Shown piece by piece: positions 24,189 to 39,667 of a stretch of DNA of 51,128 nucleotides. Under the pieces are notes generated by a model, which was not told the origin of the DNA, ran no database searches, and saw only the letters and a program-made list of their open reading frames with translations. The translations under genes were made by a program, and so were the position numbers. How positions within the stretch are numbered: the first letter of the stretch is position 1; the number at the start of each line of letters is the position of its first letter. Source of the DNA: Candidatus Azotimanducaceae bacterium (lineage in GTDB: Bacteria; Patescibacteriota; Minisyncoccia; Phycocordibacterales; UBA918); contig JBLHGD010000001.1 in assembly GCA_047616585.1 (NCBI GenBank), positions 1 through 51,128 on the forward strand, written 5' to 3'.

Positions 24189-25474
24189 GATTTGCTTGTT
24201 ATGTACTCTGATATTTTTTCAATCGCATAATCTAACTCTTCTGTACCCAGCAAAGGGTGACATCCGATGAAAAACGAATGGTCCCGAACATACCTACTGT
24301 TGGATAAATCTCCCACACTTCTGCCTGGAGCATGTGCCAAACTGGGTTGATCGGGTAAGGTCCCACACATGATTGCTCGCGTCTCTACACTTTCAGACTC
24401 AAGGAACTGAGCAAATTCTTTCCGAGGAAATTTTACGCCGTCTTTGATAACCATCGGAAATGTATAGTACACATGACTGAATGTGTCATCACTCAACTTT
24501 GGCAAAATGAGTACATTTTTGTGTTTCTTCAGTCCGGCGTGTAGGTATTTTGCGCTTTTAGTTCTGATCGCATTTGTCTCGTCTAGTTTATTAAGCTGTA
24601 CATGACCAAACGCAGCAGGAGCATCTGCCATTCTAAAATTCCAGCCTATTCGATGGAAAGTATAGCGCTCATCAAAATCAACCAAGTTATCCTGAGTATA
24701 TCCATACCGCTCTCCACTATACGTTCTGTCTCGTCCAAACTCTCGAAGATCGCGTATAACTTTTTGATACTCGTCACTATTGGTGGCAACCATACCTCCT
24801 TCTGCACTAGTCATATTATGAGCCACATAAAAGCTCCATGTGGCAATATCACCAAAGCTGCCGACTTTCTTGCCGTGCAGCTCTGCGCCGTGTGACTCAC
24901 AACAATCTTCAATCACCTTTATAGTATACTCTTTGGCAAGTACCATAATCTCCTCCATCGGGGCTGGCATACCCAGCGTATGCACTACCATAACACATTT
25001 GATTTTATGGTCCTTTTCTTCGAGTGCTTTTGCAAGCTCTTGCACGTCAATATTAAGTGTCTCTTGATCGATATCGATATACACAGGAACCAGTCCGAGC
25101 TGCAAAATAGGAGACGCGACGCTAATGAAAGTCGTCGCAGGAAGCGCCACCTCATCTCCAGGCTTGAGATGTCCGACCTCCTTAAGAGCATTGAGTGCGA
25201 GAATGTTTGCTGAGGTTCCTGAATTAACAGCAATACTATGTGCAACACCCATATGCTTACTAAACGCGTTTTCAAAATCAATGACGGGCTTCTGTGTTGA
25301 CAAAAAACCGTGTAAGTAACATTTAATCGCTGCATTAACTTCATCTGAGCCATAATAACCACCGCCAATTGGCACTTTAAAGTGAGACGGGATCATTTCT
25401 TCTCTGGTTATCTCTGAAAAATATTCTTCAACGCGTTTGTAGATATCTTGCTCTTTTTCTGTTGATCTGCTCAT
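24185..25474 (-). CDS. DegT/DnrJ/EryC1/StrS-family PLP/PMP enzyme of the sugar 3-dehydratase type (RfbH/E1- or ColD-like)
   Basis: 429 aa with NSGTSANILAL, IEDCCESHG and SFYVAHNMTSAEGG. In the last motif, a His occupies the position of the Schiff-base Lys of true aminotransferases (SFH..K....GEGG). Confidence 0.85.
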   Translation of the reverse strand: MSRSTEKEQDIYKRVEEYFSEITREEMIPSHFKVPIGGGYYGSDEVNAAIKCYLHGFLSTQKPVIDFENAFSKHMGVAHSIAVNSGTSANILALNALKEVGHLKPGDEVALPATTFISVASPILQLGLVPVYIDIDQETLNIDVQELAKALEEKDHKIKCVMVVHTLGMPAPMEEIMVLAKEYTIKVIEDCCESHGAELHGKKVGSFGDIATWSFYVAHNMTSAEGGMVATNSDEYQKVIRDLREFGRDRTYSGERYGYTQDNLVDFDERYTFHRIGWNFRMADAPAAFGHVQLNKLDETNAIRTKSAKYLHAGLKKHKNVLILPKLSDDTFSHVYYTFPMVIKDGVKFPRKEFAQFLESESVETRAIMCGTLPDQPSLAHAPGRSVGDLSNSRYVRDHSFFIGCHPLLGTEELDYAIEKISEYITSKS

Positions 25475-26931: not shown

Positions 26932-28581
26932 CTATATAGCAGATTTGCTTGAAGACGGACAGGTCGACACATCATATACGTACATATTCTTACCAAGCTG
27001 GCGAAGTGTGTAAAAAGACGGCATAAGCATGCGACCAAGATTGATATCAAAATCAAACACCTCAGTGTCTGGTACGCTATTACCAAAACGGGCAATTGGC
27101 GTGCAACCCGGGATACTCAGTTCGAGCACAACGATATCCACTGGCGCAAGCATCTCGAGTACTGCTTGGTCAGTATAATTGGTAACAACCAGTGGATTAA
27201 ATTCGATGTCAGCGTCAAGCGTTCGTCGATGCTTGCACGTTGAACCGCAGTTTTCTTCTGCAAAAATCTCATACGAAGCCCTGTTCATTGGTAGCGTGAG
27301 CTCAAAAATATCCTCCTTAATAAGAACCTCTTCAGTGCCGTACCGTGCTGTGAGAAAATCAGAAACGTCATTGTATGTGGTAGGAACTGAAAATAGCGCC
27401 ATTGTATGCATATAAATGAGCAGTCCGATAGAAATAAACCCGACAGCCACAGAACGTGCCGGCGCACGATACGCAACAATACAAAATAATAAAAAAAAGG
27501 CCAACGGGAAAATATGTCTGACATTTAATGAAAGACCGTGATCCGATCTAAAAAGCACCGACGCCATTAGGATGTAGATCACTCCATACGTGAGCGCGAG
27601 GTACGCAAGTGTTTTATCGCGCACACGCCATCCAGCAGCAGGAATCACAACGAATAGTAGTGCGAGAAATAGTAATGGGAACGCCTCAACTGCATGTCGG
27701 GCGTTCACAAGAAAAGCTTCAAAAAACGACAGTGCGGGCAAGTCGTCAATGATTATTTCAGCAGATGGCTGGAGCAGTGGCGTAATGAAGGACGACACCA
27801 ACTGAAATGTATTTTGGAAATTAAGTGCAACTACAGAAAGAAAAACAGCTCCTCCGCTAAGCACTATCAGAAAAAGACGCCGCAGTGACTTTGCGGTTTT
27901 GGGAAAGAAAAGAAAAAGTATCGGAATATTTATCAAAAAAACAGCCGCAAACGGAAAGTTGGCAGTTGCAAGAAATGCGGTAACGACCGAGATTACAGAT
28001 GAACGTCCGGAGATGCCGGACGTACGCTCTTCTGTAAGCGCACGATACAAGTATATAAACGAAATAACTCCAAGCGCCGTGGAGAGCATCCACATTTTCC
28101 CTGAACGCACTAGTAAGGATGCGAGCACATTGCCAAATACGAGCACGATAAGAGCAAAGCGCCACCATGAAGAAGTAACATGGGCTTTTAAAAAGCGATA
28201 CACCACAGCGAGCAAAACGATCGATGTAAGAACAGAAACAATGCGTGATGGGATCAGCGTGTACGAAGGATTGAGGATGAGCAACGTTTTAAGCGCCTCG
28301 AGATCAAATCCAGTAAATACAAAGCCAGCAGCAAGCGCGAACGCCATAGCTATATAATTCTGAAAGAATGAGATTGTTCCATACGGGACATCCCCTCCAG
28401 GAAAGAGAGTATGCGCCTCCATAGCACGCAACACGCCACCACCAAAAGACCATACATCAGTAATAGTATTGACCATGGGAATCGCATACCACACACCGAC
28501 AAAAAAACTGACGCCAAATACAATCACCATCAGGTCTTCTTTCGTTAAGGAGTACAGTTTTTTCAGGATACGCGTCTTCAT
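26932..28581 (-). CDS. Polytopic membrane protein with a C-terminal soluble domain. It may be a GT-C-type glycosyltransferase or polymerase.
   Basis: 549 aa with at least 10 hydrophobic helices over the first roughly 400 aa, then a soluble tail of about 140 aa. No confident family motif was seen. It sits within the glycan locus. Confidence 0.65.
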   Translation of the reverse strand: MKTRILKKLYSLTKEDLMVIVFGVSFFVGVWYAIPMVNTITDVWSFGGGVLRAMEAHTLFPGGDVPYGTISFFQNYIAMAFALAAGFVFTGFDLEALKTLLILNPSYTLIPSRIVSVLTSIVLLAVVYRFLKAHVTSSWWRFALIVLVFGNVLASLLVRSGKMWMLSTALGVISFIYLYRALTEERTSGISGRSSVISVVTAFLATANFPFAAVFLINIPILFLFFPKTAKSLRRLFLIVLSGGAVFLSVVALNFQNTFQLVSSFITPLLQPSAEIIIDDLPALSFFEAFLVNARHAVEAFPLLFLALLFVVIPAAGWRVRDKTLAYLALTYGVIYILMASVLFRSDHGLSLNVRHIFPLAFFLLFCIVAYRAPARSVAVGFISIGLLIYMHTMALFSVPTTYNDVSDFLTARYGTEEVLIKEDIFELTLPMNRASYEIFAEENCGSTCKHRRTLDADIEFNPLVVTNYTDQAVLEMLAPVDIVVLELSIPGCTPIARFGNSVPDTEVFDFDINLGRMLMPSFYTLRQLGKNMYVYDVSTCPSSSKSAI

Positions 28582-28612: not shown

Positions 28613-29071
28613 ATGACACGATTCGAAGATATACACAGAAGGATCGAAACGAGATTGGGAGCGCGTGCATTTAAGCTTATTCGCTATCTTATTTCTGGTG
28701 GCACAGCTGCTCTAGTTAACTGGACCACCCTCTTCCTGCTTGTGCATTTTGCTCAGATGTACTACTTATATGCGACCATACTTGCATTTATAGTATCTAT
28801 TGCTGCTTCCTTTACAATGCAAAAATTCTGGACATTCCGCGACAATCAAGTACACGACATACACAAACAGTTTACTCGCTATCTTGGTGTAATTTCCCTA
28901 AGCTTGCTCTTGAACACCGCGCTGGTCTATCTCCTAGTAGAAAAAATGCATACGTGGTATTTGCTTGCACAAATAATTGCAACCGTAATTATTGCCATAA
29001 CTAACTTTTTTGCATATCGACATTTTGTGTTTCGCGAACGAAGCGTGCCTAATACTGAGACCCCTGACTAA
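28613..29071 (+). CDS. GtrA-family membrane protein (lipid-linked sugar translocation)
   Basis: 152 aa with four TM helices, LIRYLISGGTAALVNWTTLFLLV and a C-terminal FFAYRHFVF, typical of GtrA-like proteins. Confidence 0.85.
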   Translation: MTRFEDIHRRIETRLGARAFKLIRYLISGGTAALVNWTTLFLLVHFAQMYYLYATILAFIVSIAASFTMQKFWTFRDNQVHDIHKQFTRYLGVISLSLLLNTALVYLLVEKMHTWYLLAQIIATVIIAITNFFAYRHFVFRERSVPNTETPD

Positions 29072-29076
29072 ATTAC

Positions 29077-30393
29077 ATGAACTTCATACGTTCCCACAAA
29101 ACAGAACTGATACTCTTTATTCTATCTTTTGTAATTCACCTTACACTTTTTTCTGCAATGATTGAAGAGTTGGGCTCCGTGCTTGATACCGTTCGAGTTG
29201 ATGACGGATACTTTGAGCTCACACAGAATGTACTTGCAGGTAACGGATTTTCATGGAGTGCTGAAGCGCCATATGCACCAAACCCGCTACGCACCCCAGG
29301 CTATATATATGTATTGGCGTTACTCATAAGCGTCGTAGGCATTACTGGCGCTGCACTGATACAGCTCGTCGCATCCTCTCTCATCCCTGTTTTTGGTTTT
29401 TATATTGCCCAACGTATTACAGGCTCAAAAAAAGCCGCCATATTCACAGGTGTCATACTCGCAGTTGACCCAATGCTTGCATTCCTTTCATTTCAGTTTT
29501 ATACCGACACACTCTTTTTACTACTCTTTCTTCCGTGGCTTCTTCTCACATTCCGCTATGCCAAAAATCCAAATATAAAGACCCTGATTATATGCGCGAT
29601 ACTTCTGGGCATTGCGATACTGGTGCGGCCAGTAGTTCAGTATGTGCCTATACTTATTGCTCTTTGTATTATGTGGCAATTCGGAAAACATAATTGGCAC
29701 AAGAGCGCTATACATATTGGTGTATATTTTATTATCATTGGCGCAATACTCACGCCATGGATTATGCGTAACGTTGCCACCTTTGACAGCCCCGGCCTGA
29801 GCGCACAATCATCATTTGTACTGTATACCAACCTTGCTCCCGCAGTACTGAGTGTTGCTAACGGCACCAACTTTCAAGAAGAGCGTGACTCTTTCCTCAC
29901 ATTTGAAGAATATAAAGGAGACACTATCACGCTTAAAAATGCGAGCACCTACACAGAAAAAGCGATCGATATCGTACTCGAGCATCCAGCAGCAACCGCA
30001 TATGTGATGAGCAAATCAGTTTTCACATTCTTCACAAATGACGGTTTCTATACACTCCTAGGTCGCCTTGGGCATGAGCCAAGAGACTCTCTTGCATTTC
30101 TGGTAGTGATGCGTCTGGTATGGATTTTTATAACCCTTGCTGCATTTGTTGGAGCACTACGGTATATCTTCATACAACGAAGCCCTTGGGCAATATTCAC
30201 CGTAACGCTTGTCGCGTACTTCGCTGCAACGAGCACCATCGCTGCCTTTGGCACCAACCCCCGCTATCGGCTTCCGGTTGACCCCATCATACTTGCCCTT
30301 GCGGCAATTGGCGCCGTATACATACGTACCTGGGTAGAGAGGTACAACATAGTACCTAAAATTAAAAAGATGATAAGACGCGATAATATATAA
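29077..30393 (+). CDS. GT-C fold membrane glycosyltransferase (ArnT/PMT, GT39/GT83-like)
   Basis: 438 aa with about 11 TM helices. The first loop carries an acidic motif (VRVDDGYFEL) as in ArnT/PMT enzymes. It follows gtrA after a 5-nt gap. Confidence 0.78.
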   Translation: MNFIRSHKTELILFILSFVIHLTLFSAMIEELGSVLDTVRVDDGYFELTQNVLAGNGFSWSAEAPYAPNPLRTPGYIYVLALLISVVGITGAALIQLVASSLIPVFGFYIAQRITGSKKAAIFTGVILAVDPMLAFLSFQFYTDTLFLLLFLPWLLLTFRYAKNPNIKTLIICAILLGIAILVRPVVQYVPILIALCIMWQFGKHNWHKSAIHIGVYFIIIGAILTPWIMRNVATFDSPGLSAQSSFVLYTNLAPAVLSVANGTNFQEERDSFLTFEEYKGDTITLKNASTYTEKAIDIVLEHPAATAYVMSKSVFTFFTNDGFYTLLGRLGHEPRDSLAFLVVMRLVWIFITLAAFVGALRYIFIQRSPWAIFTVTLVAYFAATSTIAAFGTNPRYRLPVDPIILALAAIGAVYIRTWVERYNIVPKIKKMIRRDNI

Positions 30394-30400
30394 TATACAT

Positions 30401-30694
30401 ATGAAAACTCTTTCAGAATGGCAGAATGCATTAAAGAAAGCTGCAGATAGTAAGTTTCCGGATACTGCTTCTGGTACATTTGATCGTGTGAGCTCACTTC
30501 AAGATCAGCTCGATGATGTGAAAGCAGGCACTGCTGTTGAGCTTGGGACGCTCCAAAGCAATGACCACGCCCACCAAGACGTGGACCACCGCATAGGAGC
30601 ACTTATCGCAGACGCCCTTATTTTAGCTGAAGAACGCGGTTCGGACATTGAGCTTGAACTAGAAAAAGTGCTCGCATGGTTTGAGGGACGATAA
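30401..30694 (+). CDS. Small all-alpha protein, tentatively MazG-like NTP-pyrophosphohydrolase superfamily
   Basis: 97 aa. It starts 7 nt after the GT-C stop. The segment IGALIADALILAEERGSDIELELEKVL resembles the C-terminal helix of MazG-type proteins, but the canonical N-terminal ExxE motif is not obvious. Confidence 0.4.
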   Translation: MKTLSEWQNALKKAADSKFPDTASGTFDRVSSLQDQLDDVKAGTAVELGTLQSNDHAHQDVDHRIGALIADALILAEERGSDIELELEKVLAWFEGR

Positions 30695-30873
30695 TTTTTT
30701 AGGAAACCCTTTTGTAAGAGGGCCAGAAATGGGGTTCGAGTATTTCAGCGGTTATATCGAAGCGGGAGTTACTTGAACTATAGGAATAGTCCTATACGTG
30801 GTGGCAACGTTTTTGGGGATTGCGTTATTGTATTTTTGTACTGCATACCTAGTTTAAAAACTGCACCGATACA

Positions 30874-31869
30874 TTAGAGCAATACACGCTTCCCTTCTTT
30901 CGCTGAAGTACGCATTGCTTCAAGCACGGTTGCTTGGGCAAGTATGCGCTCATACATATCTTCAAATTGCACACTATCATTTTTTGCAATAGCTTTGAAG
31001 AAGAAATCAAAGCTCAGTTCAAATTGGTTAGCTGCTGGAACAACAAGGTTCTCAGTTTTGTCTTCCTTGCCATTATTTGTGATATGAACTACGGGTGGTT
31101 CTAAAGTCGGTGGTATAGCAAACGCTCTTTTTGTTTGCAACATACCCTTCGACCCCAGTACCGAATATGTATTTTGGTATAAATGATCAAAACCAAAGGA
31201 CATCAGTGCTTCCCCATGCGCAAACTCAAAGAGTGCTGATCCAGCAATGTCTACATCTTTTGACTCAGAGGATATTCTGCACGTCACCGCAATTGGTTCT
31301 GCCTGCATAATCTTACGTGCCATAAACGCAGTGTAACAACCACAGTCGTTTATCGCTCCTCCTCGTAACTCAGGATTATTTCGAATATTACCCACTTCAA
31401 ACGGCGGAAAAGCGAAAGCTCCATTCCATACGCGAGGTGTCCCGATGTGACCTTCTTCTATAAGCGAAAGTATCTTTGCATGTTGTGGGTGAAATTCTAG
31501 TGCGAAATTCTCATAGAGTGCTACATTGGCTTCTTTACAAGCCTGTACCATTTTTTTTGCTGACTCAAGACTGTACGTGATAGATTTCTCGCACATGACA
31601 TGCTTCCCTGCCGCTGCAGATTTCAGCGTCCACTCTTCTTGCAAGCCTACAGGGAGTGGGCTGTATATGACATCAATATCTGGGCGAGCAATGAGGGATT
31701 CATATCCTTCCGCCTCAAGACCGTGCTCAGAAGCGCACGCATCTGCTTTTTCTTTAGAGCGGCTGGCGATGGCCACCAGCTCAACATCAGGGAGCGCTTT
31801 AAAAGCTGGAATTGCATACCGCCTCGCAATTTCCGCACACCCTAATATTCCAACACGAACTTTTTTCAT
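30874..31869 (-). CDS. Gfo/Idh/MocA-family NAD(P)-dependent oxidoreductase (candidate sugar 3-ketoreductase, KijD10/TylC1-like)
   Basis: The start is set at ATG 31869 (MKKVRVGILGCAEIARRYAIPAF), which forms an ATGA overlap with the upstream stop. The track start is a GTG. Confidence 0.88.
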   Translation of the reverse strand: MKKVRVGILGCAEIARRYAIPAFKALPDVELVAIASRSKEKADACASEHGLEAEGYESLIARPDIDVIYSPLPVGLQEEWTLKSAAAGKHVMCEKSITYSLESAKKMVQACKEANVALYENFALEFHPQHAKILSLIEEGHIGTPRVWNGAFAFPPFEVGNIRNNPELRGGAINDCGCYTAFMARKIMQAEPIAVTCRISSESKDVDIAGSALFEFAHGEALMSFGFDHLYQNTYSVLGSKGMLQTKRAFAIPPTLEPPVVHITNNGKEDKTENLVVPAANQFELSFDFFFKAIAKNDSVQFEDMYERILAQATVLEAMRTSAKEGKRVLL

Positions 31870-32507
31870 ACAAGAATTGCACACACATTGCGCGCTAAAG
31901 AATTAACAACTTTGTCTACTAATAAAAGTTTTTTTATCTCTGGAAGGGTCAACCAGATATAGTCATCTGTGATCGGGACTTCTTCTGACTCGTCTACTAA
32001 GACCACCATAGACCTATTAACTTTACGATAAAACCTACCGCCATCCTCAACACCGGCAACCGAACTTACTAAGGTACCCTTGGTTCCGTCAAAGTACTCT
32101 GTGAGTCTTGGACGTTGCCCTTTGTGCGCTTGCGAGAGATTCCCTTCTGAGGCTTGGAGTGCTGGTGAAATTTGTAGCAAGTCTACATTCCCAGGTTCAA
32201 ATTTTGCATAAAACAGGTGCCGCTTTACGCCGTCTTTTTCTTGAACAATGACACCTGAAATACCAACCTCCTCTTGTTTCAACATCGGCTGACTCCATGA
32301 AAGGATCTCGCGATCGCCAGCACCCTTCACACTGACTCCGACAATTGAAAAGAATTTTCCGCTTTCGTGCACTATATTTCCAGTTGCTGAATCTGTCCTC
32401 CACCCTACTGTTTGTTTGACACTGATCTCTTCAACGACAGCAGGATATGCATCACGTCGAGCTTTTAGCCATTCTAATATTGGCTGAATATCTACGTCTT
32501 CGCTCAT
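31866..32507 (-). CDS. NDP-hexose 2,3-dehydratase domain protein (single-domain, half-size)
   Basis: 213 aa. GKFFSIVGVSV...REILSWSQPMLKQEEVGISGVIVQEKDGVKRHLFYAKFEPGN matches the Hexose_dehydrat (EvaA/TylX3) domain pattern. Confidence 0.78.
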   Translation of the reverse strand: MSEDVDIQPILEWLKARRDAYPAVVEEISVKQTVGWRTDSATGNIVHESGKFFSIVGVSVKGAGDREILSWSQPMLKQEEVGISGVIVQEKDGVKRHLFYAKFEPGNVDLLQISPALQASEGNLSQAHKGQRPRLTEYFDGTKGTLVSSVAGVEDGGRFYRKVNRSMVVLVDESEEVPITDDYIWLTLPEIKKLLLVDKVVNSLARNVCAILV

Positions 32508-33733
32508 ACAATTTCAACGTTAGGTACAGGAATAATAAACTTCGCCCCACGATCACGGAGTGCTTTTTCTTTTTCAAGAATAAAGTCGCGGTAATTCCAC
32601 GCAAGAAGTAAAACATAGTCTGGCGTTTCATTCTCTAAAATATCAGGCGATACAACCGGAATGTGACTTCCAGGTGCTAGGAGTCCAATCTTATAGGGCG
32701 TTGTGTCGGTAATATACACAATGTCGTCGGGAGTAAAGCCGCAGAAATTTAAAAGTGTATTGCCTTTTGCTGGAGCACCATATGCTGAGACAGCCTTACC
32801 ATCTTTGCGGAAGCCGCGGACGAGTCCGGTGAGCTTTTCGCGAATGGCATCCACATCTTTTTGAAAACTATCAAACCCAGAAAGATCATGCAGTCCCGCT
32901 TTCTCTTCGAGTGCTAAAAGTTCCTGCACGTTCTCGTGGAGAGGTTCGTTTGTAGCAAGTCTCGCATATACGCGAATCGAACCGCCGTGCATAGAAACTC
33001 GTCGAACATCAGATACTTCCATGTCAAAACGTTTGAAAAAGTGAATGAGCGGCTTCACACTGTAATAACACAAGTGCTCGTGATAGACCGTATCGAATTC
33101 ACGTTTTGAAACTAGATCGAGCAGATAATGTGACTCGGAGACAAATACCCCATCGTCTGCTAGGAGCACCTTCACTGCCTCTACAATCTCATCAATATTA
33201 TCAATGTGCGCAAACACATTATTGGCTGTTATGACCTTTGCTTTACCGTGTTTTGCAACTATGTCTTTTGCCATTTCAATTGTGAAAAAGCCGTCAACTG
33301 TATCAACCCCTTTCTCTCGAGCCACATCAGCGACATTAGAGGATGGCTCGACACCAAGTACACGATATGTATCTTTGAAAAATTGTAAGAGCACTCCGTC
33401 ATTTGAACCGATATCGACGATCAAATCACCTTCATCTAGGTTGTCGTTTTTGAGGTCATCTGCGTATGAGCGAAAATGATCAACCAGCGGTTTGGAAGCT
33501 GAGGAAAAATATGCATAATCGCCATGGAATAACTCCTCCTCATCAACAACGTCAAGAAGTTGCGCGAGGCTACATTCACCACAAAAATATACATCCAATG
33601 GATATCGATTCTCATCTTTTATCTGCTCTTTGCTCAAGAAATTATCTACCGGTGGATGATCACCGAGGGAAAGAACCCGAGTGAGGTCGGTGTTTTTACA
33701 GATTCGGCATTGTTCTTTGTGTACGTAACTCAT
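32504..33733 (-). CDS. SAM-dependent NDP-hexose C-methyltransferase (TylC3/EryBIII-like)
   Basis: 409 aa with an N-terminal Zn-ribbon (CRICKNTDLTRVLSLGDHPPVDNFL...CGEC), a class I SAM motif (LIVDIGSNDG) and a C-terminal C-methyltransferase-type domain. Confidence 0.88.
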   Translation of the reverse strand: MSYVHKEQCRICKNTDLTRVLSLGDHPPVDNFLSKEQIKDENRYPLDVYFCGECSLAQLLDVVDEEELFHGDYAYFSSASKPLVDHFRSYADDLKNDNLDEGDLIVDIGSNDGVLLQFFKDTYRVLGVEPSSNVADVAREKGVDTVDGFFTIEMAKDIVAKHGKAKVITANNVFAHIDNIDEIVEAVKVLLADDGVFVSESHYLLDLVSKREFDTVYHEHLCYYSVKPLIHFFKRFDMEVSDVRRVSMHGGSIRVYARLATNEPLHENVQELLALEEKAGLHDLSGFDSFQKDVDAIREKLTGLVRGFRKDGKAVSAYGAPAKGNTLLNFCGFTPDDIVYITDTTPYKIGLLAPGSHIPVVSPDILENETPDYVLLLAWNYRDFILEKEKALRDRGAKFIIPVPNVEIV

Positions 33734-34587
33734 GGGGTGATTTTAGCTGATTGTAAATATAATTTCCACTCACCTTCAATATATTCCTCAAGTGCCTCCT
33801 GCCAGGGTCGCAGAGTGCACCTACTGGAAACAATGGATTCATTACTTGGAAGTGTGGCTCCAGATGAAAAAAAACTTCGATCGACTGCTTTTATTGTAAC
33901 GCTTGGTTTGAGCTGCTGCGCTATGTGGTGAGCGAGATCATGACGGGTCGCAACACCTGCATTTGCGATATGTACAACGCCTGTTTCTTCGTTTGCGAGA
34001 AGTTCTTTGATAGCCATTATGAAATCTTTGCCATATGTTGGTGATCCGTACACATCGCTTAAGGCCACAATCTCTGACTTGTCGAGTTGTCGTATGATAT
34101 TGCCGTAAAATTTGTTGTCGCGCTCTGGACCTCCACCAAAGACCCACGACGTACGCGCAATAATATATTTTGATGAATGAGCTGCAGTAATGAGTTCCCC
34201 GAAGTATTTGGTGCGAGCATAGTGTGACTCTGGCTCAGGGATATCCTCTTCGGTATATGGATTCTTCTTCTCCCCATTAAATACACGAGATGTTGAAACA
34301 TAGACCATTGTTGCACCCACGCTGCGGGCAGCGCAAGCGACATTATAGGTCCCGCGCACATTCAGCTCATACGCATACATTGGCTCTTTTTCAGTACGAG
34401 TCATATCAGTTGCTCCCGCCAAGTGTATGATCGCTGAGGGAGTATGCTTCTGCACATAGTCCACCACTTTCTCTCTATCTAAAATATCTAATGCAGTAGA
34501 ATCTGGGCGCAGACCAAAGTCGACATACGAACCCAACATTCCACCTGAACCTGTAGTTAAGATTCGGGAATCATCAAACTTTTTCAT
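33730..34587 (-). CDS. RmlD-family NDP-4-keto-6-deoxyhexose reductase
   Basis: 285 aa. ILTTGSGGMLGS, STSRVFNG and YARTKYFGE (YxxxK) fit the dTDP-4-dehydrorhamnose reductase family. Confidence 0.85.
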   Translation of the reverse strand: MKKFDDSRILTTGSGGMLGSYVDFGLRPDSTALDILDREKVVDYVQKHTPSAIIHLAGATDMTRTEKEPMYAYELNVRGTYNVACAARSVGATMVYVSTSRVFNGEKKNPYTEEDIPEPESHYARTKYFGELITAAHSSKYIIARTSWVFGGGPERDNKFYGNIIRQLDKSEIVALSDVYGSPTYGKDFIMAIKELLANEETGVVHIANAGVATRHDLAHHIAQQLKPSVTIKAVDRSFFSSGATLPSNESIVSSRCTLRPWQEALEEYIEGEWKLYLQSAKITP

Positions 34588-35324
34588 ATCTCCTTCTCCG
34601 CCATGAAGTTGCCTGACTTCAGAAGAGAATCAAACGTTCCAGCGTCAGACCAGAACCCCTCAATAATACTGTGCCTTAAATCTTTTTGGTCTAAGAACAA
34701 GTTATTTACATCAGTAATTTCAAGTTCACCTCGTGCTGAAGGTTTTAGATTTTTCAGCTTGGCAAATACGGTTTCATCATAAATATAAAATCCAGTTTGT
34801 GCATAATTTGATTTTGGTTTTTCCGGCTTTTCCTCAATCAATATAATGATCTCATTTTTTTCATCAAAAACTGGGACACCAAAACGTCCCGGATTTTCCA
34901 TTTCCTTAAAGAAAACGGTTGCCCCTTTTTTGAATTCACCCACTTCTTTTGCGAAATTCGTTTCAAAAATATTATCGCCTAATATAACAGCTATAGGTCC
35001 TTCGTCTGCAAAATCTTCTGTATATTTAAGAGCATCTGCAATACCTCCGTTATTCATGTCTTGAATAGCATACGATAGTGCAACACCATATTCTTTCCCT
35101 GAACCTAAGAAGTTCATGAAGTGCCCTGCGTGCTCACGTCCACAAACAATCATGACCTCATCGATGCCAGATTGCTTGAGTGTTTCCAATGGATATAAAA
35201 TCATTGGCTTGTCGTGTACGGGTAACAAGTGTTTGTTAGTAATTCGAGTCAGAGGAGCCAAGCGAGTGCCTAATCCTCCAGCCAAAATGACACCTTTTAT
35301 TTTTTTAGATTGTGTTCTTTCCAT
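34584..35324 (-). CDS. rfbA: Glucose-1-phosphate thymidylyltransferase-like sugar nucleotidyltransferase
   Basis: 246 aa with KGVILAGGLGTRLAPLTRITNKHLLPVHDKPMILYPLETL. The symbol follows from operon context with rfbB and is less certain than the family call. Confidence 0.85.
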   Translation of the reverse strand: MERTQSKKIKGVILAGGLGTRLAPLTRITNKHLLPVHDKPMILYPLETLKQSGIDEVMIVCGREHAGHFMNFLGSGKEYGVALSYAIQDMNNGGIADALKYTEDFADEGPIAVILGDNIFETNFAKEVGEFKKGATVFFKEMENPGRFGVPVFDEKNEIIILIEEKPEKPKSNYAQTGFYIYDETVFAKLKNLKPSARGELEITDVNNLFLDQKDLRHSIIEGFWSDAGTFDSLLKSGNFMAEKEI

Positions 35325-36403
35325 AAATCAATATGTGGGTTAAAAACGCCTGTTTTCTCTCTGACCTTATCAACCCATTCTACATTATTTTTATACCAAT
35401 CAACGGTATCTTTGAAAGCGAGCTGGAAGTTTTTTTCAGGTCTCCAACCCAAATCATTACGAATCAAAGTTGAATCAACTGCATACCGTCTATCATGCCC
35501 TGGGCGATCGCCTACGAATTCAATCCATGATGTATCTTTATCAAAACATTCAAGAATGAGCTCAGCGATTTCATGGTTGTTTATCTCGTTGTCGGTTCCT
35601 ATATTGTATACGCTGCCCGATACGCCATTGAGCAAACATAACTCGAGTGCAGAACAATGATCTAACACATGTATCCAATCACGAACGTGTAACCCGTCGC
35701 CGTACAAAGGTAATTTTTTACCCTCAAGCATTCGTAACACAAAAAAAGGTATCAGCTTCTCAGGGTACTGAAATGGTCCGTAGTTATTTGAGCAATGCGT
35801 GACAATGACCGGCACGCCCCATGTATTTTGATAGGAACGACAAAGCATATCTCCTCCTGCTTTTGTCGCAGCATATGGCACATTAGGTGCAAAAGATGTA
35901 TCTTCTTTAAACTTCTCTTTGGTACCGAGCTCAAGCGAACCATATACTTCATCTGTCGATACTTGCACATACTTTTTAACCGTATGCGCACGTACCGCCT
36001 CAAGGAGATTATATACACCTGCAACATTTGTTTGTATAAATTCTAATGCGCCGACATGGATACTTCTATCGACATGCGTTTCCGCCGCAAAATTAATGAC
36101 ATAGTCCGGATTGTATTTTTCAAACACATGCGCAATGGTAGCTGAGTCTGCAATGTCCCCATGCACAAATTGATATCGTGGATGCTCTTCAAGGTCTTTG
36201 AGATTATCGGGATTTCCTGAATATGTTAGATAGTCAAGATTTACAATATCAGCATCTGGATATTTCTGAAGTATAGAGCGGATAAAATTCGATCCGATGA
36301 ACCCGGAGCCACCACAAACTAACATTGTGTTGTTATTGAATGTTTCTGTATGGACCTCTTTTGGCGTAGATTTTTGCAAAATGTGTTTCTTTTCGGCTGA
36401 CAT
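35297..36403 (-). CDS. rfbB: dTDP-glucose 4,6-dehydratase
   Basis: 368 aa with GGSGFIGSNFIR, NLDYLTYSGNPDNL, STDEVYG and YAATKAGGD motifs. Confidence 0.92.
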   Translation of the reverse strand: MSAEKKHILQKSTPKEVHTETFNNNTMLVCGGSGFIGSNFIRSILQKYPDADIVNLDYLTYSGNPDNLKDLEEHPRYQFVHGDIADSATIAHVFEKYNPDYVINFAAETHVDRSIHVGALEFIQTNVAGVYNLLEAVRAHTVKKYVQVSTDEVYGSLELGTKEKFKEDTSFAPNVPYAATKAGGDMLCRSYQNTWGVPVIVTHCSNNYGPFQYPEKLIPFFVLRMLEGKKLPLYGDGLHVRDWIHVLDHCSALELCLLNGVSGSVYNIGTDNEINNHEIAELILECFDKDTSWIEFVGDRPGHDRRYAVDSTLIRNDLGWRPEKNFQLAFKDTVDWYKNNVEWVDKVREKTGVFNPHIDLWKEHNLKK

Positions 36404-36409
36404 CGGCGC

Positions 36410-36415
36410 ATTATA
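36410..36415 (-). promoter_or_regulatory. -10 box positioned for a leaderless rfbB operon transcript
   Basis: Minus-strand TATAAT lies 6 nt upstream of ATG 36403, inside a 31-nt intergenic gap. Confidence 0.45.
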
Positions 36416-36434
36416 TCAAAATACCTGGGATGTG

Positions 36435-37382
36435 TCAGATTTCTTCCTGAACTATGTAAATAGGGCGTTTTTTCGTCTCTTCAAAGATTTTACCAACATA
36501 TAATGCAATTATGCCAAGTAGCGTCGTGAGAAGACCAAAAATAAGCCAAAGAGATCCTGTTAGAGTTTCTAGCGACTGTGAGGAACGCACATCAAAACTG
36601 TTTGTTGTTACAAGTACAAGGTATCCAGCGGCGACAATGGTCACGAGTGCACCCAATCTGACAATTATCCTCAGCGGTTTCTCCGAGTACGCCAGGATGA
36701 TATCTGTGGCTAGACTAAATAATTTCATAAACGAATACCCCGAAACCCCACCCTTTCGTGGCGCATGCTTAACTGGAACCACTGCCGTACGGAACCCAAC
36801 CCACCGCACCATGACAGAAAAATAACGCATATGATCCTCGATAGAAAGTACAGCATCAATAACACGACGTTGATAGATACCAAAATTTGCGAGCGTGCGA
36901 TCGTGCTGACGACCAGTAAGATAACCAAGTGTCGCGTAAAAACCCCAAGACACAAACAATCGCAAACGACTATCATGTCTCTCCTGGCGTGACCCAACAA
37001 CTACGTAGAATCCTTCTTGTGCTTTTTGATACATTCTTTCGATCGCTTCCGGAAGATCCTGAAGATCACAATCCATCACTACAATCCACTCACCACGACA
37101 TGCTCGGAGGCCGGCAGTAAGCGCTGGATACTGACCAAAGTTACGTGAAAGATTAATGCCACGAATCCGTTCATCGCTTAATTTTAACTTCTTAATTATC
37201 TCCCACGCGTTGTCCGGACTTGCATCGTTCACGAAAATAAACTCAAAATTTGGAGTTATAGATTCCAGGGTCTTTGCAGTACGTTCGTAAAGCTCACCCA
37301 GCACCTCATCAGAACCGTACACAGGAACCACCACCGATATATAAGGAGTTTCACTTTGATTCATAACAAAGTTATCATACAC
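36435..37382 (-). CDS. GT2 polyprenyl-phosphate glycosyltransferase (GtrB/ArnC/DPM1-like)
   Basis: 315 aa with ISVVVPVYGSDEVL...FIFVNDASPDN...VVMDCDLQD (DxD) and two C-terminal TM helices. Confidence 0.9.
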   Translation of the reverse strand: MYDNFVMNQSETPYISVVVPVYGSDEVLGELYERTAKTLESITPNFEFIFVNDASPDNAWEIIKKLKLSDERIRGINLSRNFGQYPALTAGLRACRGEWIVVMDCDLQDLPEAIERMYQKAQEGFYVVVGSRQERHDSRLRLFVSWGFYATLGYLTGRQHDRTLANFGIYQRRVIDAVLSIEDHMRYFSVMVRWVGFRTAVVPVKHAPRKGGVSGYSFMKLFSLATDIILAYSEKPLRIIVRLGALVTIVAAGYLVLVTTNSFDVRSSQSLETLTGSLWLIFGLLTTLLGIIALYVGKIFEETKKRPIYIVQEEI

Positions 37383-37418
37383 ATTTTTTGTCTGTTTAGA
37401 AAGACTTAGGTAGTGTGC

Positions 37419-38528
37419 TTATGTACTACGACTAAACGTAAGTACCTTTTCTGCTCTCTTTTTCCAGGTAAACTCCTTAGAGAGCTCATGCGCCGCAACA
37501 GCTCGAGAACGAGCATCACCAGAATTTGTGATGATTTGTTTGATGCTTTCCATGACAGACTTCGCATCTTCGGGATTATACAAAAAGACCTCTTTTTCAG
37601 AGACGACTGAAGTAATACTTGGTACATTTGCGGCTAAAAGCGAAACATTCGAGGTCATATAACTGAAAAGCTTAAGTGGAGAAGTGTACTTTGCAGACAA
37701 GTCATTCTTCGAAGAATTTGTACACACAAGAATATCTCCCGCTTGTTGATTATCTGCAAGTTCGCGATATGGTCTCTGTCCTAGAAATCGCACACGTGGA
37801 TACTTCTGAGCATACATTTCTATTGCGGCGTCAGTTCCACCGACTGCAATGAAAGACACCTCAGAAAAAGTACTTGCGGTCTCAAAAAGCACATCGACCC
37901 CCTTCCAGGCGTCCAAGCCGCCAATGTACATAACCACAGGCTTGTCTGTCGCAATTCCTAAACGAGCACGCGCTGTTTCTCTTGACTCCAATGCTCCAAA
38001 AAAAGACTCGTCAATTCCGTCATGAGCGACACATATTTGAGCCTCAATAACACCCGTATCAACATAAAACTTTTTAATACCTTCGGAGATAGCAACACAT
38101 TTTACCCCTCTTTTAAGAAGGGACCGCGCTGCAAAATTGAACTTTGCCTCATGTGATTCCCATACTATTTTTTTTGTTGGTGTAAAAATTGAAACAAACC
38201 ACAACACTATTTCATCTCTAGAATAGACAATATCTGACTTATTTTTGATTAAGTAGAAAATCGCCTGAATCGAAAATACAAAGAGACCTAAGAAATAACC
38301 AAATTTTGAACCAATGCTCCATGGCTCACAAAATGTATAGAGTACCTTAAAGCTCTGGGGGATTCCGTAATATGTAGATGTATCTTCAACAACACCATTT
38401 TTCCGGTAAGGAACTACGAGTGTCACGTCTGCGTTATTATGCGCAAACGCATTGCACATATGCGCGATTTGCGCACCATGAGCACGCTCTGACGGGAATC
38501 GCACATACGCTAAGTAAGTAATTTTCAT
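37419..38528 (-). CDS. Glycosyltransferase, GT4 family
   Basis: 369 aa with a GT-B architecture and a C-terminal Glycos_transf_1-like region (GDILVCTNSS...SPLKLFSYM). Confidence 0.82.
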   Translation of the reverse strand: MKITYLAYVRFPSERAHGAQIAHMCNAFAHNNADVTLVVPYRKNGVVEDTSTYYGIPQSFKVLYTFCEPWSIGSKFGYFLGLFVFSIQAIFYLIKNKSDIVYSRDEIVLWFVSIFTPTKKIVWESHEAKFNFAARSLLKRGVKCVAISEGIKKFYVDTGVIEAQICVAHDGIDESFFGALESRETARARLGIATDKPVVMYIGGLDAWKGVDVLFETASTFSEVSFIAVGGTDAAIEMYAQKYPRVRFLGQRPYRELADNQQAGDILVCTNSSKNDLSAKYTSPLKLFSYMTSNVSLLAANVPSITSVVSEKEVFLYNPEDAKSVMESIKQIITNSGDARSRAVAAHELSKEFTWKKRAEKVLTFSRST

Positions 38529-38647
38529 ATTTTATTTTGGATAAAAGTCATCGTACCAAACTATGTGATTTTCAACTCCGACTTCGATTTTATTTTTTTG
38601 CGGAGTGGCTCTCCTTGTTACATATTAAGTGCAAATTGATAGCAGCT

Positions 38648-39667
38648 TTATTCCCTAGAGACTAATTTCCTATCAGAGTCTACCATTGATTTTATGAGCT
38701 CTTCGAAAGAGTATTTCGGCACCCACCCAAGAACAGACTTTGCTTTGAGCGGATCACCATGGAGGAAATTTACTTCGCTCGGTCGGTAAAATTCTGGATT
38801 GACTTTGACTAGAATTTTACCCGTATGAGCATTTGTTCCAATTTCATCCACTCCCTCACCCGTCCACTGTATATCAAAGCCGAAATGATTACCGGCAATG
38901 GTTGCGAAGTCGCGCACGGTATGCGCTTCGCCGCTGGCAATGACAAAATCTTCTGGTTTTTCTTGTTGCAGCATCATGTGCATCGCTCCGACATAATCCT
39001 CTGCGTGTCCCCAGTCTCGAATCGCATTAAGATTTCCAAGCTCTAGATGGTCCTGCTTACCTGCGGCAATTTTTGCAAATGAATAAGTTATTTTCCTCGT
39101 TACGAATTGCTTTCCTCGACGAGGTGACTCGTGATTAAATAAAAAACCTGAAGCGAGAAAAGCTCCTCTTTTTTCTCGAATCCCAACAATAAAATCCTCG
39201 TGTGCCCTTAATTTTGCGTCCCCGTATGGACTTTGCGGATCAAAAGGAGTCTCTTCATTCTGAGGAGCTGGAGAATTACCAAACATCTCACTTGTGGATG
39301 CTTGATAAATCTTTATCTTTGGGTTTGCTTTAAGTGCTTCATTGACGATTCTGCCAACTCCGTAATAGTTCACATCCCACGTCTCATCGGGGCACTCAAA
39401 GGAAACCCCAACATGTGACTGCGCTGCAAGATTATAGATTTCATCAGGCATAACAGTTTGCATGATTTCAGAAATTCGATTCAAATCTCTTAAGTTTCCA
39501 TAATGAAAATGCACCTTTCTTCCCGAAAATAAATCAGCCAGTTGTTGGGTTGGGTCATTACTGGTCCTTCTCAACAACGCATGAACTTCATAACCTTTAT
39601 CCAGCAACAAAGGCGCCAAATAAGAACCATCTTGTCCACTAATGCCCGTAATAAGTGCTTTTTTCAT
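38648..39667 (-). CDS. gmd: GDP-mannose 4,6-dehydratase
   Basis: 339 aa with MKKALITGISGQDGSYLAPLLLDKGYEVHALLRRTS, STSEMFG, YGDAKL and FNHESPRRG. Confidence 0.95.
   Translation of the reverse strand: MKKALITGISGQDGSYLAPLLLDKGYEVHALLRRTSNDPTQQLADLFSGRKVHFHYGNLRDLNRISEIMQTVMPDEIYNLAAQSHVGVSFECPDETWDVNYYGVGRIVNEALKANPKIKIYQASTSEMFGNSPAPQNEETPFDPQSPYGDAKLRAHEDFIVGIREKRGAFLASGFLFNHESPRRGKQFVTRKITYSFAKIAAGKQDHLELGNLNAIRDWGHAEDYVGAMHMMLQQEKPEDFVIASGEAHTVRDFATIAGNHFGFDIQWTGEGVDEIGTNAHTGKILVKVNPEFYRPSEVNFLHGDPLKAKSVLGWVPKYSFEELIKSMVDSDRKLVSRE

What the first reader, a model, noticed from the sequence alone, without database searches (positions are those of the whole stretch)
30874..36415. Antibiotic-style dTDP-2,6-dideoxy-3-C-methylhexose (mycarose-like) operon in a surface-glycan locus
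Six minus-strand genes are chained by overlaps (28 nt between rfbB and rfbA, then 4-nt ATGA-type overlaps at each later junction) behind one leaderless TATAAT promoter. In order they are RmlB, RmlA, an RmlD-like 4-ketoreductase, a TylC3/EryBIII-like C-methyltransferase, an EvaA/TylX3-like 2,3-dehydratase and a Gfo/Idh/MocA oxidoreductase (the family of the 3-ketoreductases KijD10 and TylC1).

Established knowledge: this enzyme set is the route to TDP-mycarose-type branched 2,6-dideoxysugars of macrolide and aromatic polyketide antibiotics in actinomycetes.

Inference: no 3,5- or 5-epimerase is present, so the product would probably keep the D configuration. It would be installed on a cell-surface glycan rather than a secondary metabolite, which would be an unusual sugar for a reduced-genome bacterium.
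Basis: partly seen in the sequence, partly recalled or inferred. Interest (0 to 1): 0.6.

Follow-up and report, generated by a model that had tools for sequence, protein, structure and literature searches.

The report
Mycarose-like deoxysugar operon in CPR bacterium
A tiny-genome (candidate-phyla-radiation) bacterium carries a complete operon for a branched 2,6-dideoxy sugar known so far from actinomycete antibiotics, made with a one-domain version of a normally two-domain dehydratase and probably delivered to the cell surface by a lipid-carrier glycosylation system.

Summary
Six overlapping minus-strand genes (30874-36403) encode RmlB, a short RmlA, an RmlD-like 4-ketoreductase, an MtmC/TcaB9-like sugar 3-C-methyltransferase, an EvaA-like 2,3-dehydratase and a KijD10-like 3-ketoreductase. 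These are the same six enzyme types as the published TDP-D-mycarose recipe.

No RmlC/TylK-family epimerase is found in this genome, or in 16 of 17 other genomes carrying the cassette. No ketosynthase is found in this genome. A D-configured sugar for the cell surface is therefore the best reading.

- The 2,3-dehydratase is a conserved 213-aa single-domain form. It belongs to a third lineage, separate from both halves of the two-domain enzymes, and keeps both catalytic glutamates.
- A GtrB/ArnC-type polyprenyl-phosphate glycosyltransferase sits immediately upstream in all 11 close relatives that cover that side. GtrA and a GT-C transferase lie next to the operon. This suggests lipid-carrier delivery.
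- The cassette is patchy: absent from 60 same-genus or same-order genomes. Its dehydratase and 3-ketoreductase both nest within DPANN archaeal sequences.
- The TATAAT promoter is a strong consensus match but is not conserved in relatives.

All chemistry is inferred from sequence. Earlier reports of this scan reached the same reading in other genomes.

The parts
36410..36438 (-). Promoter-like element CTGACA-17-TGnTATAAT. Its -10 box ends 6 nt before the RmlB ATG, and its -35 box overlaps the GT2 stop codon.
   Evidence: 11 of 12 matches with an extended -10, the best site in 30300-38800. It is not conserved in L002 or L004.
35297..36403 (-). rmlB: dTDP-glucose 4,6-dehydratase, 368 aa, with a roughly 26-aa basic N-terminal extension.
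   Evidence: TIGR01181 scores 440.5 bits against a cut-off of 365.1. PF16363 and PF01370 also match. Relatives carry an extension of similar length, and one has no internal Met.
34584..35324 (-). Short RmlA-type glucose-1-phosphate nucleotidylyltransferase, 246 aa, lacking about 45 C-terminal residues of canonical RmlA.
   Evidence: PF00483 matches at 4.9e-55. TIGR01207 scores 235.8 bits, below its cut-off of 360.65, and covers profile positions 1-237 of 286. Relatives have proteins of 238-252 aa.
33730..34587 (-). RmlD-like SDR, 285 aa; predicted dTDP-4-keto-sugar 4-ketoreductase.
   Evidence: PF04321 matches at 1.9e-53. TIGR01214 scores 180.8 bits, below its cut-off of 224. The best solved relatives are RmlD enzymes (2.1e-38).
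32504..33733 (-). NDP-hexose 3-C-methyltransferase, 409 aa, MtmC/TcaB9/KijD1 type.
   Evidence: PF08421 plus PF08484 match. PDB scores are MtmC 332 bits, TcaB9 276 and KijD1 270. Four zinc cysteines and the equivalents of TcaB9 His181, Tyr222, Glu224 and His225 are conserved.
31866..32507 (-). Single-domain (half-size) NDP-hexose 2,3-dehydratase, 213 aa.
   Evidence: It has one PF03559 domain and is the only copy in the genome. It matches the N-half of EvaA at 146 bits and the C-half at 76 bits. Glu104 and Glu154 correspond to EvaA Glu139 and Glu190 and are invariant in all 138 clade members aligned. The AlphaFold2 model has pLDDT 93, and its best fold match is EvaA with TM 0.84. At least 248 homologues are about 212 aa long.
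30874..31869 (-). Gfo/Idh/MocA-family NDP-hexose 3-ketoreductase, 331 aa from ATG 31869, KijD10 type.
   Evidence: PF01408 plus PF22725 match. KijD10 matches at 1.1e-58 over residues 3-325, and the equivalents of Lys102 (in an EKS motif) and Tyr186 are conserved. This gene follows the dehydratase in most loci examined, including actinomycete clusters.
36435..37382 (-). GtrB/ArnC-type polyprenyl-phosphate glycosyltransferase (GT2), 315 aa, with two C-terminal membrane helices; the candidate enzyme that loads the sugar onto a lipid carrier.
   Evidence: PDB matches over nearly the full length are GtrB sll0501 (3.9e-47) and ArnC (1.1e-45). Hydropathy finds helices at about 237-263 and 273-300 plus a C-terminal YVGKIFEETKKRPIY motif. 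It lies directly upstream of RmlB in 11 of 11 close CPR loci that cover that side, and a GT2 with the same architecture lies inside the DPANN cassettes.
28613..29071 (+). GtrA-family small membrane protein; candidate flippase for the lipid-linked sugar.
   Evidence: PF04138 matches at 7e-27. It is conserved beside the cassette in L002, L017, L020, L026 and L028.
29077..30393 (+). GT-C (PMT_2/ArnT-like) membrane glycosyltransferase; candidate extracytoplasmic transferase.
   Evidence: PF13231 matches at 6.6e-12. Hydropathy finds about 10 hydrophobic segments. It is conserved at 52-64% identity next to the cassette in at least 6 loci.
30401..30694 (+). Conserved 97-aa acidic soluble protein of unknown function, convergent with the operon's last gene.
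   Evidence: No Pfam hit at E 0.05 and no hydrophobic segment. It is present at 57-77% identity just after the 3-ketoreductase in about 14 CPR loci.
37419..38528 (-). GT4-type (Glycos_transf_1) glycosyltransferase upstream of GT2; the alternative, direct user of the dTDP-sugar.
   Evidence: PF00534 and PF13692 match. A homologue at 33-40% identity lies upstream of GT2 in several relatives.

Best explanation
The operon is a complete, dedicated pathway to a dTDP-2,6-dideoxy-3-C-methyl-D-hexose: dTDP-D-mycarose or its C-4 epimer.

Proposed steps, all inferred from family membership:
1. RmlA-like enzyme: glucose-1-phosphate plus dTTP gives dTDP-glucose.
2. RmlB gives dTDP-4-keto-6-deoxy-D-glucose.
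3. The single-domain 2,3-dehydratase, probably a homodimer that mimics the pseudo-dimeric two-domain EvaA, gives the 3,4-diketo-2,6-dideoxy sugar.
4. The KijD10-type 3-ketoreductase gives dTDP-4-keto-2,6-dideoxy-D-glucose with an equatorial 3-OH.
5. The MtmC-type methyltransferase adds the 3-C-methyl group from SAM.
6. The RmlD-like reductase reduces C-4.

No epimerase acts, so C-5 stays D.

More tentatively, the adjacent GtrB/ArnC-like GT2 moves the sugar onto a polyprenyl phosphate, GtrA flips it, and the neighbouring GT-C enzyme attaches it to a surface glycan or protein outside the membrane.

The cassette is an accessory, horizontally mobile module shared among Parcubacteria-type CPR bacteria and DPANN archaea.
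For: Enzyme identities come from family and PDB searches. Catalytic residues are kept in the methyltransferase, the 3-ketoreductase and the dehydratase. The roles of EvaA Glu139/Glu190 and KijD10 Lys102 are cited from PMC8987622 and PMC11167396.

The six enzyme types are the same as in the reconstituted TDP-D-mycarose operon (PMC10269268). The methyltransferase scores higher against MtmC, which acts on a 3-hydroxy sugar, than against TcaB9 and KijD1, which act on 3-amino sugars.

PF00908 is absent from the genome and from 16 of 17 other cassette genomes. No ketosynthase is present.

The whole unit GT2-RmlB-RmlA-KR4-CMT-DH-KR3 is conserved at 56-77% identity in about 17 species genomes. GtrA and the GT-C gene lie alongside in several of them. 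GT2 is a full-length GtrB/ArnC homologue. In DPANN cassettes a GT2 of the same architecture sits between RmlA and the dehydratase, in a different gene order.

The half-size dehydratase is a conserved family and folds like one EvaA domain.
Against: There is no biochemical evidence of any kind. Product, stereochemistry and nucleotide carrier are inferred.

RmlA and the RmlD-like protein score below their NCBIfam equivalog cut-offs, so their specificities are uncertain.

No single-domain 2,3-dehydratase has been characterised. EvaA's pocket A may need residues from its second domain, which I could not check because the EvaA paper is not held.

The genome is only 88% complete, and an epimerase from an unrelated family cannot be excluded.

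GtrB- and ArnC-type enzymes characterised so far use UDP-sugars; use of a dTDP-deoxysugar rests on gene adjacency alone. A conserved GT4 upstream could use the dTDP-sugar directly.
Confidence: 0.62

Rival explanations
1. The same dTDP-sugar is made, but a cytoplasmic Leloir glycosyltransferase (for example the GT4 at 37419-38528) adds it directly to a lipid-linked oligosaccharide. The GT2/GtrA/GT-C module would then handle a different, UDP-linked sugar.
For: A GT4 homologue lies upstream of GT2 in many relatives. Characterised GtrB and ArnC enzymes use UDP-sugars (established knowledge; PDB names). In L004 the GtrA and GT-C genes are not adjacent to the cassette.
Against: GT2 is at 65-72% identity and invariably adjacent to RmlB. 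The GT4 is only 33-40% identical and is not always adjacent. DPANN cassettes place a GtrB-like GT2 inside the sugar operon without that GT4.
Confidence: 0.25
2. The half-size Nudix-fold protein is not a working 2,3-dehydratase; it could be an NDP-sugar hydrolase or a regulator. The operon would then make a 6-deoxy-3-C-methyl hexose that keeps its 2-OH, with the Gfo enzyme doing other redox chemistry.
For: The nearest single-domain structural neighbours are NDP-sugar hydrolases: NUDT5 and the E. coli GDP-mannose hydrolase YffH, both at TM about 0.5. No single-domain member of the family has been assayed. A more divergent group of single-domain CPR relatives has lost the second glutamate.
Against: The protein is 37% identical to EvaA with TM 0.84, against 8-14% identity to the hydrolases. 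Both catalytic glutamates are invariant in its clade. Its partner is a KijD10-type 3-ketoreductase, which lies next to the dehydratase in most loci examined, including actinomycete deoxysugar clusters.
Confidence: 0.08
3. The final sugar is L-configured (L-mycarose type) because an epimerase from outside the RmlC family, or one in the unassembled 12% of the genome, acts on the intermediate.
For: The genome is 88% complete. The RmlD family typically reduces L-configured 4-keto sugars (established knowledge). Relatives carry small cupin genes elsewhere in their glycan loci.
Against: PF00908 is absent from 16 of 17 other cassette-bearing genomes. The tightly overlapped operon leaves no room for another gene. 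The cupins in relatives sit with a second C-methyltransferase/SDR module, not with this cassette.
Confidence: 0.05

Closest known systems
TDP-D-mycarose branch of mithramycin/chromomycin biosynthesis in Streptomyces (MtmD/E-type activation, OleV-type 2,3-dehydratase, OleW-type 3-ketoreductase, MtmC/CmmC, MtmTIII)
   Same: It has the same six enzyme types and the same predicted order of chemistry, with no epimerase (PMC10269268). The window's methyltransferase has MtmC as its best solved relative (3.4e-98). The 3-ketoreductase is of the Gfo/Idh/MocA type that gives an equatorial 3-OH (PMC11167396).
   Different: The host is a roughly 1-Mb CPR bacterium with no polyketide synthase. The genes lie in a surface-glycan locus. 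The dehydratase has one domain instead of two. The 4-ketoreductase is RmlD-like. The sugar is probably passed to a lipid carrier rather than to an aglycone.
EvaA (Amycolatopsis orientalis dTDP-4-keto-6-deoxyglucose 2,3-dehydratase, PDB 4J7G/4J7H) and TylX3, OleV, KijB1, SpnO
   Same: It belongs to the same Pfam family, PF03559. It is 37% identical to the EvaA N-terminal domain, which carries the pocket-A residues Glu139 and Glu190. The equivalents of those two glutamates are conserved, and the fold matches at TM 0.84.
   Different: It is 213 aa with one Nudix-like domain, against about 470 aa with two. It belongs to a third lineage, separate from both the N-halves and the C-halves of two-domain enzymes.
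Three-component extracytoplasmic glycosylation systems (GtrA/GtrB/GtrC; ArnC/ArnE-F/ArnT)
   Same: The locus has a GtrB/ArnC-like GT2 with two C-terminal membrane helices, a GtrA-family protein and a GT-C transferase.
   Different: The implied donor would be a dTDP-linked 2,6-dideoxy branched sugar rather than UDP-glucose or UDP-Ara4FN. The acceptor is unknown. From recollection, decaprenyl-phosphate-rhamnose used by the Corynebacterium GT-C enzyme RptA is the nearest precedent for a dTDP-derived lipid-linked deoxysugar.

Membership tests
TDP-D-mycarose-type pathway | dTDP-glucose 4,6-dehydratase | tested here: met
   TIGR01181 equivalog scores 440.5 bits against a cut-off of 365.1.
TDP-D-mycarose-type pathway | Glucose-1-phosphate thymidylyltransferase | tested here: inconclusive
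   PF00483 matches strongly, but TIGR01207 scores 235.8 bits, below its cut-off of 360.65. The protein lacks the C-terminal ~45 residues of canonical RmlA, so nucleotide specificity is not established.
TDP-D-mycarose-type pathway | NDP-hexose 3-C-methyltransferase with a zinc-binding N-domain and the catalytic His/Tyr/Glu/His set | tested here: met
   PF08421 plus PF08484 match and MtmC matches at 3.4e-98. Four cysteines and the equivalents of TcaB9 His181, Tyr222, Glu224 and His225 are conserved. Residue numbers are from recollection and fit a constant offset of 2 in the PDB chain.
TDP-D-mycarose-type pathway | Gfo/Idh/MocA 3-ketoreductase with the catalytic Lys | tested here: met
   KijD10 matches at 1.1e-58 over the full length. 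The equivalents of Lys102 (EKS motif) and Tyr186 are conserved. The role of Lys102 is cited from PMC11167396.
TDP-D-mycarose-type pathway | No 3,5- or 5-epimerase (D series retained) | tested here: met
   PF00908 gives 0 hits in the own genome. Among 17 other cassette genomes it gives one weak partial hit. The control search found it in 11 of 14 reference genomes.
TDP-D-mycarose-type pathway | Product is dTDP-2,6-dideoxy-3-C-methyl-D-ribo-hexose | not testable with these tools
   This needs enzymatic reconstitution with MS and NMR. The stereochemistry at C-3 and C-4 cannot be read from sequence.
EvaA-type two-domain 2,3-dehydratases | Two tandem Hexose_dehydrat (Nudix-like) domains in one chain of about 450-480 aa | tested here: not met
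   The protein is 213 aa with one PF03559 domain, and there is no second copy in the genome. The stop-to-stop frame is 214-313 aa in all CPR and DPANN homologues.
EvaA-type two-domain 2,3-dehydratases | Catalytic Glu139 and Glu190 of pocket A | tested here: met
   Glu104 and Glu154 align with them and are invariant in all 138 members of the CPR+DPANN clade aligned.
GtrB/ArnC polyprenyl-phosphate glycosyltransferases | GT2 catalytic domain followed by two C-terminal membrane helices; full-length similarity to GtrB and ArnC | tested here: met
   PDB 5EKP matches at 3.9e-47 over residues 4-312, and ArnC at 1.1e-45 over residues 14-314. Hydropathy finds segments at about 237-263 and 273-300.
GtrB/ArnC polyprenyl-phosphate glycosyltransferases | Transfers the operon's sugar to a polyprenyl phosphate | not testable with these tools
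   The only evidence is conserved adjacency in 11 of 11 close CPR loci and in the DPANN cassettes.

The most novel reading that the evidence does not exclude
Parcubacteria-type CPR bacteria and DPANN archaea share, by transfer between the two domains of life, a cassette that puts an antibiotic-class 2,6-dideoxy sugar on their cell surface through a polyprenyl-phosphate carrier. In the CPR version the sugar is also 3-C-methyl-branched.

The cassette's 2-deoxygenation enzyme would be a symmetric homodimer. It would represent the single-domain form, either pre-duplication or as old as the duplication, from which the two-domain EvaA-type dehydratases arose.
Probability: 0.3. Interest if true: 0.75.

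Novelty: new variant of a known kind. Interest (0 to 1): 0.6.

Why it matters
C-2 deoxygenated, C-methyl-branched sugars are textbook markers of actinomycete secondary metabolism. Finding a complete, conserved pathway in surface-glycan loci of ultrasmall episymbionts would extend this chemistry to cell envelopes. It would also place it in organisms whose surface is their interface with hosts.

The single-domain dehydratase gives a direct experimental handle on the hypothesis that EvaA arose by gene duplication. It would also be a smaller enzyme for glycodiversification work.

A GtrB-type enzyme that accepts a dTDP-deoxysugar would widen the known donor range of three-component glycosylation systems.

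The shared CPR/DPANN ancestry of the dehydratase-reductase pair is a concrete case of gene exchange between the two groups of ultrasmall organisms.

Tried and rejected
- Truncated or split dehydratase: rejected. There is only one PF03559 gene in the genome, it has ATGA overlaps on both sides, and more than 240 homologues have the same length.
- Recent loss of the C-terminal domain from an ordinary two-domain enzyme: rejected. The half-size clade is not nested in the crown of the N-halves or the C-halves. One other CPR genome (G399, locus L006) does have such a recent split, and its half nests among the N-halves.
- Secondary-metabolite sugar: rejected. No ketosynthase is present in the genome, and all neighbouring genes are glycan-assembly genes.
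- A 3-amino branch (TcaB9/KijD1-type, which needs a 3-aminotransferase): considered unlikely. The operon carries a 3-ketoreductase, and the only DegT-family gene lies about 6 kb away in another transcription unit.
- Primary EvaA paper: not held, so which domain supplies each pocket-A residue could not be checked.
- Literature searches pairing '3-dehydratase' with Patescibacteria or DPANN found nothing. Searches pairing mycarose with surface-glycan terms or CPR terms found nothing relevant.
- The unrooted domain tree cannot separate 'pre-duplication lineage' from 'very early loss of one domain'. I do not claim either.

Full report
**Observation.** They are RmlB 35297-36403, RmlA 34584-35324, an RmlD-like SDR 33730-34587, a C-methyltransferase 32504-33733, a 2,3-dehydratase 31866-32507 and a Gfo/Idh/MocA oxidoreductase 30874-31869. 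RmlB and RmlA overlap by 28 nt, and RmlA has no alternative in-frame start. The other junctions are ATGA overlaps, provided the last gene starts at ATG 31869. That start gives 331 aa, the length seen in a relative.

The promoter-like site is CTGACA-17-TGnTATAAT. It is the only 11/12 match in the 8.5 kb scanned and ends 6 nt before ATG 36403. Relatives also translate an N-terminal extension on RmlB, so that ATG is probably the true start. In those relatives, however, GT2 and RmlB are only 12 nt apart with no TATAAT. The promoter is therefore specific to this genome at best, and GT2 probably belongs to the same transcription unit elsewhere.

**Enzyme identities.**
- RmlB passes the NCBIfam equivalog cut-off.
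- RmlA is a short form of 246 aa and scores below the cut-off.
- The RmlD-like protein also scores below its cut-off.
- The C-methyltransferase has the zinc-binding and C-terminal domains of sugar C-methyltransferases. Its best solved relative is MtmC, the D-mycarose 3-C-methyltransferase (332 bits), ahead of TcaB9 (276 bits) and KijD1 (270 bits), which act on 3-amino sugars. It keeps four cysteines and the His/Tyr/Glu/His catalytic set.
- The Gfo protein aligns end to end with the 3-ketoreductase KijD10 (1e-58; the next family member is at 4e-31). It keeps the catalytic Lys of the EKP motif and the active-site Tyr. The role of Lys102 and the equatorial 3-OH outcome are described in PMC11167396.

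**The dehydratase.** It matches PF03559 and EvaA but has only one domain. EvaA has two. According to the review PMC8987622, which cites Kubiak et al. 2013, only EvaA's pocket A is catalytic, with Glu139 and Glu190, and pocket B is a relic of a gene duplication.

The window protein resembles the N-terminal half more closely (146 bits against 76). Its Glu104 and Glu154 align with those two glutamates and are invariant in all 138 members of its clade that I aligned. An AlphaFold2 model (pLDDT 93) superposes on one EvaA domain with TM 0.84. The next-best folds are NUDT5 and the E. coli GDP-mannose hydrolase YffH, both Nudix NDP-sugar hydrolases and, from established knowledge, homodimers. That makes a homodimer the natural working hypothesis.

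**Pathway logic.** The six activities are the ones assembled in the literature to make TDP-D-mycarose: desIII, desIV, oleV, oleW, cmmC and mtmTIII (PMC10269268). MtmC methylates TDP-4-keto-2,6-dideoxy-D-glucose, which is the product expected from a KijD10/OleW-type reductase.

The RmlC/TylK/EvaD epimerase family (PF00908) is absent from this genome, which is 904 kb and 88% complete. It is also absent from 16 of 17 other genomes that carry the cassette; the seventeenth has one weak 38-bit partial hit. The D series is therefore the likely outcome. The configuration at C-4 cannot be predicted.

**Destination.** The genome has no ketosynthase. The operon sits in a roughly 38-kb run of genes for glycosyltransferases, sugar-nucleotide enzymes, a Wzx-type flippase and a Wzy_C/O-antigen-ligase-domain protein. 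That run is bounded on one side by housekeeping genes: GatB, Obg, SecA and MurB.

Immediately upstream lies a GT2 that is a full-length homologue of GtrB and ArnC, with two C-terminal membrane helices. Convergent with the operon are a conserved 97-aa ORF, a GT-C (PMT_2) transferase and GtrA.

Synteny analysis of 47 loci from named genomes plus three from metagenome contigs gave three results:
- The unit GT2-RmlB-RmlA-KR4-CMT-DH-KR3 is conserved at 56-77% identity in about 17 Patescibacteria species.
- GT2 is next to RmlB in every one of the 11 close loci that cover that side.
- The GT-C gene, GtrA and a 13-helix membrane protein lie alongside in at least six loci.

This conserved linkage is the basis for proposing delivery through a lipid carrier. 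It is inference, and a conserved GT4 upstream is the rival.

**Distribution and origin.**
- PF03559 occurs in only 11 of 401 genomes sampled across the phylum. It occurs in none of 60 other genomes of the same genus or order. The cassette is therefore accessory and patchy.
- In a library of 1.8 billion representative proteins, nearly all of the top 150 hits listed (of 1437) are two-domain proteins of about 470 aa. Only two are single-domain proteins under 300 aa.
- Single-domain homologues at 48-63% identity occur in small archaeal genomes labelled Woesearchaeota or Nanoarchaeia. Eleven of twelve of these genomes encode the archaeal ribosomal protein L32e. Their usual cassette is shorter: RmlA-GT2-DH-KR3-RmlB. 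One archaeon (L031) also has the methyltransferase next to the dehydratase.
- A maximum-likelihood tree of 86 separated domains places N-halves, C-halves and half-size proteins in three groups. Each group forms one side of a branch, with support of 98/93, 97/99 and 96/95. The half-size lineage is thus as old as the crown of the two-domain enzymes. The unrooted tree cannot say whether it predates the duplication.
- Within the half-size group, the CPR cassette clade is nested among the archaeal sequences. An independent tree of the neighbouring 3-ketoreductase gives the same nesting, (L037,(L031,CPR)), with support of 97/94 and 97/93. This points to exchange between DPANN archaea and CPR bacteria.

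**Comparison and novelty.** Every enzyme belongs to a known family and the chemistry is the known D-mycarose logic. Three things differ: the single-domain dehydratase, the cell-surface and lipid-carrier context, and the hosts. I found no paper in the held library that links a 2,3-dehydratase with Patescibacteria or DPANN.

Earlier reports of this scan describe the same cassette in other genomes and reached the same reading. They are not independent evidence, but they show that this window is one more instance of a recurring feature. I rate it a new variant of a known kind, with moderate to high interest. All mechanistic steps remain to be tested biochemically.

Noticed in passing
window 30401-30694 (+): A 97-aa acidic, soluble ORF with no Pfam hit lies convergent with the 3-ketoreductase gene. 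It is conserved at 57-77% identity in the same position in about 14 CPR loci, so it is probably a real cassette-associated protein of unknown role.
   Followed up: partly
window 26932-28581 (-): A 549-aa protein with about 13 hydrophobic segments and no Pfam hit is conserved at 49-64% identity next to GtrA in several relatives. It could be an uncharacterised membrane glycosyltransferase or polymerase.
   Followed up: partly
L031-L044 (DPANN archaeal loci): Small archaeal genomes carry a shorter cassette, RmlA-GT2(GtrB-like)-half-size dehydratase-3-ketoreductase-RmlB. It has no C-methyltransferase or RmlD-like gene, implying an unbranched 2,6-dideoxy sugar. L031 is the exception: it has the methyltransferase next to the dehydratase.
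   Followed up: partly
L002 15700-18400; L004 2500-4800: Relatives carry a second sugar C-methyltransferase (33-40% identical to the operon's) next to an SDR, and in L002 a small cupin as well. This suggests a second branched-sugar pathway in the same glycan loci. No such module was seen in this window.
   Followed up: no
L006 (genome G399, contig 19, 19234-21612): Another Patescibacteria genome has two separate single-domain PF03559 genes about 1.1 kb apart, with a Gfo reductase gene between them. The one examined nests among the N-halves of two-domain enzymes, which indicates an independent, recent gene split.
   Followed up: partly
L009-L014 (other Patescibacteria genomes): A divergent group of single-domain PF03559 proteins (E 1e-16 to 1e-29) has replaced the second catalytic glutamate with Gln, Lys or Ala in 5 of 6 members. 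They may have a different activity.
   Followed up: no
window 24185-25474 (-) and 38648-39667 (-): A 429-aa DegT-family protein and a GDP-mannose 4,6-dehydratase lie in the same glycan locus. Another first-reader note suggests the DegT protein is a ColD/E1-like 3-dehydratase; if so, the locus would also make a 3,6-dideoxyhexose. I did not check this.
   Followed up: no
window 36404-36434: The strong TATAAT promoter-like site between GT2 and rmlB is missing from two relatives, where the gap is only 12 nt. It may be an internal promoter specific to this genome.
   Followed up: partly
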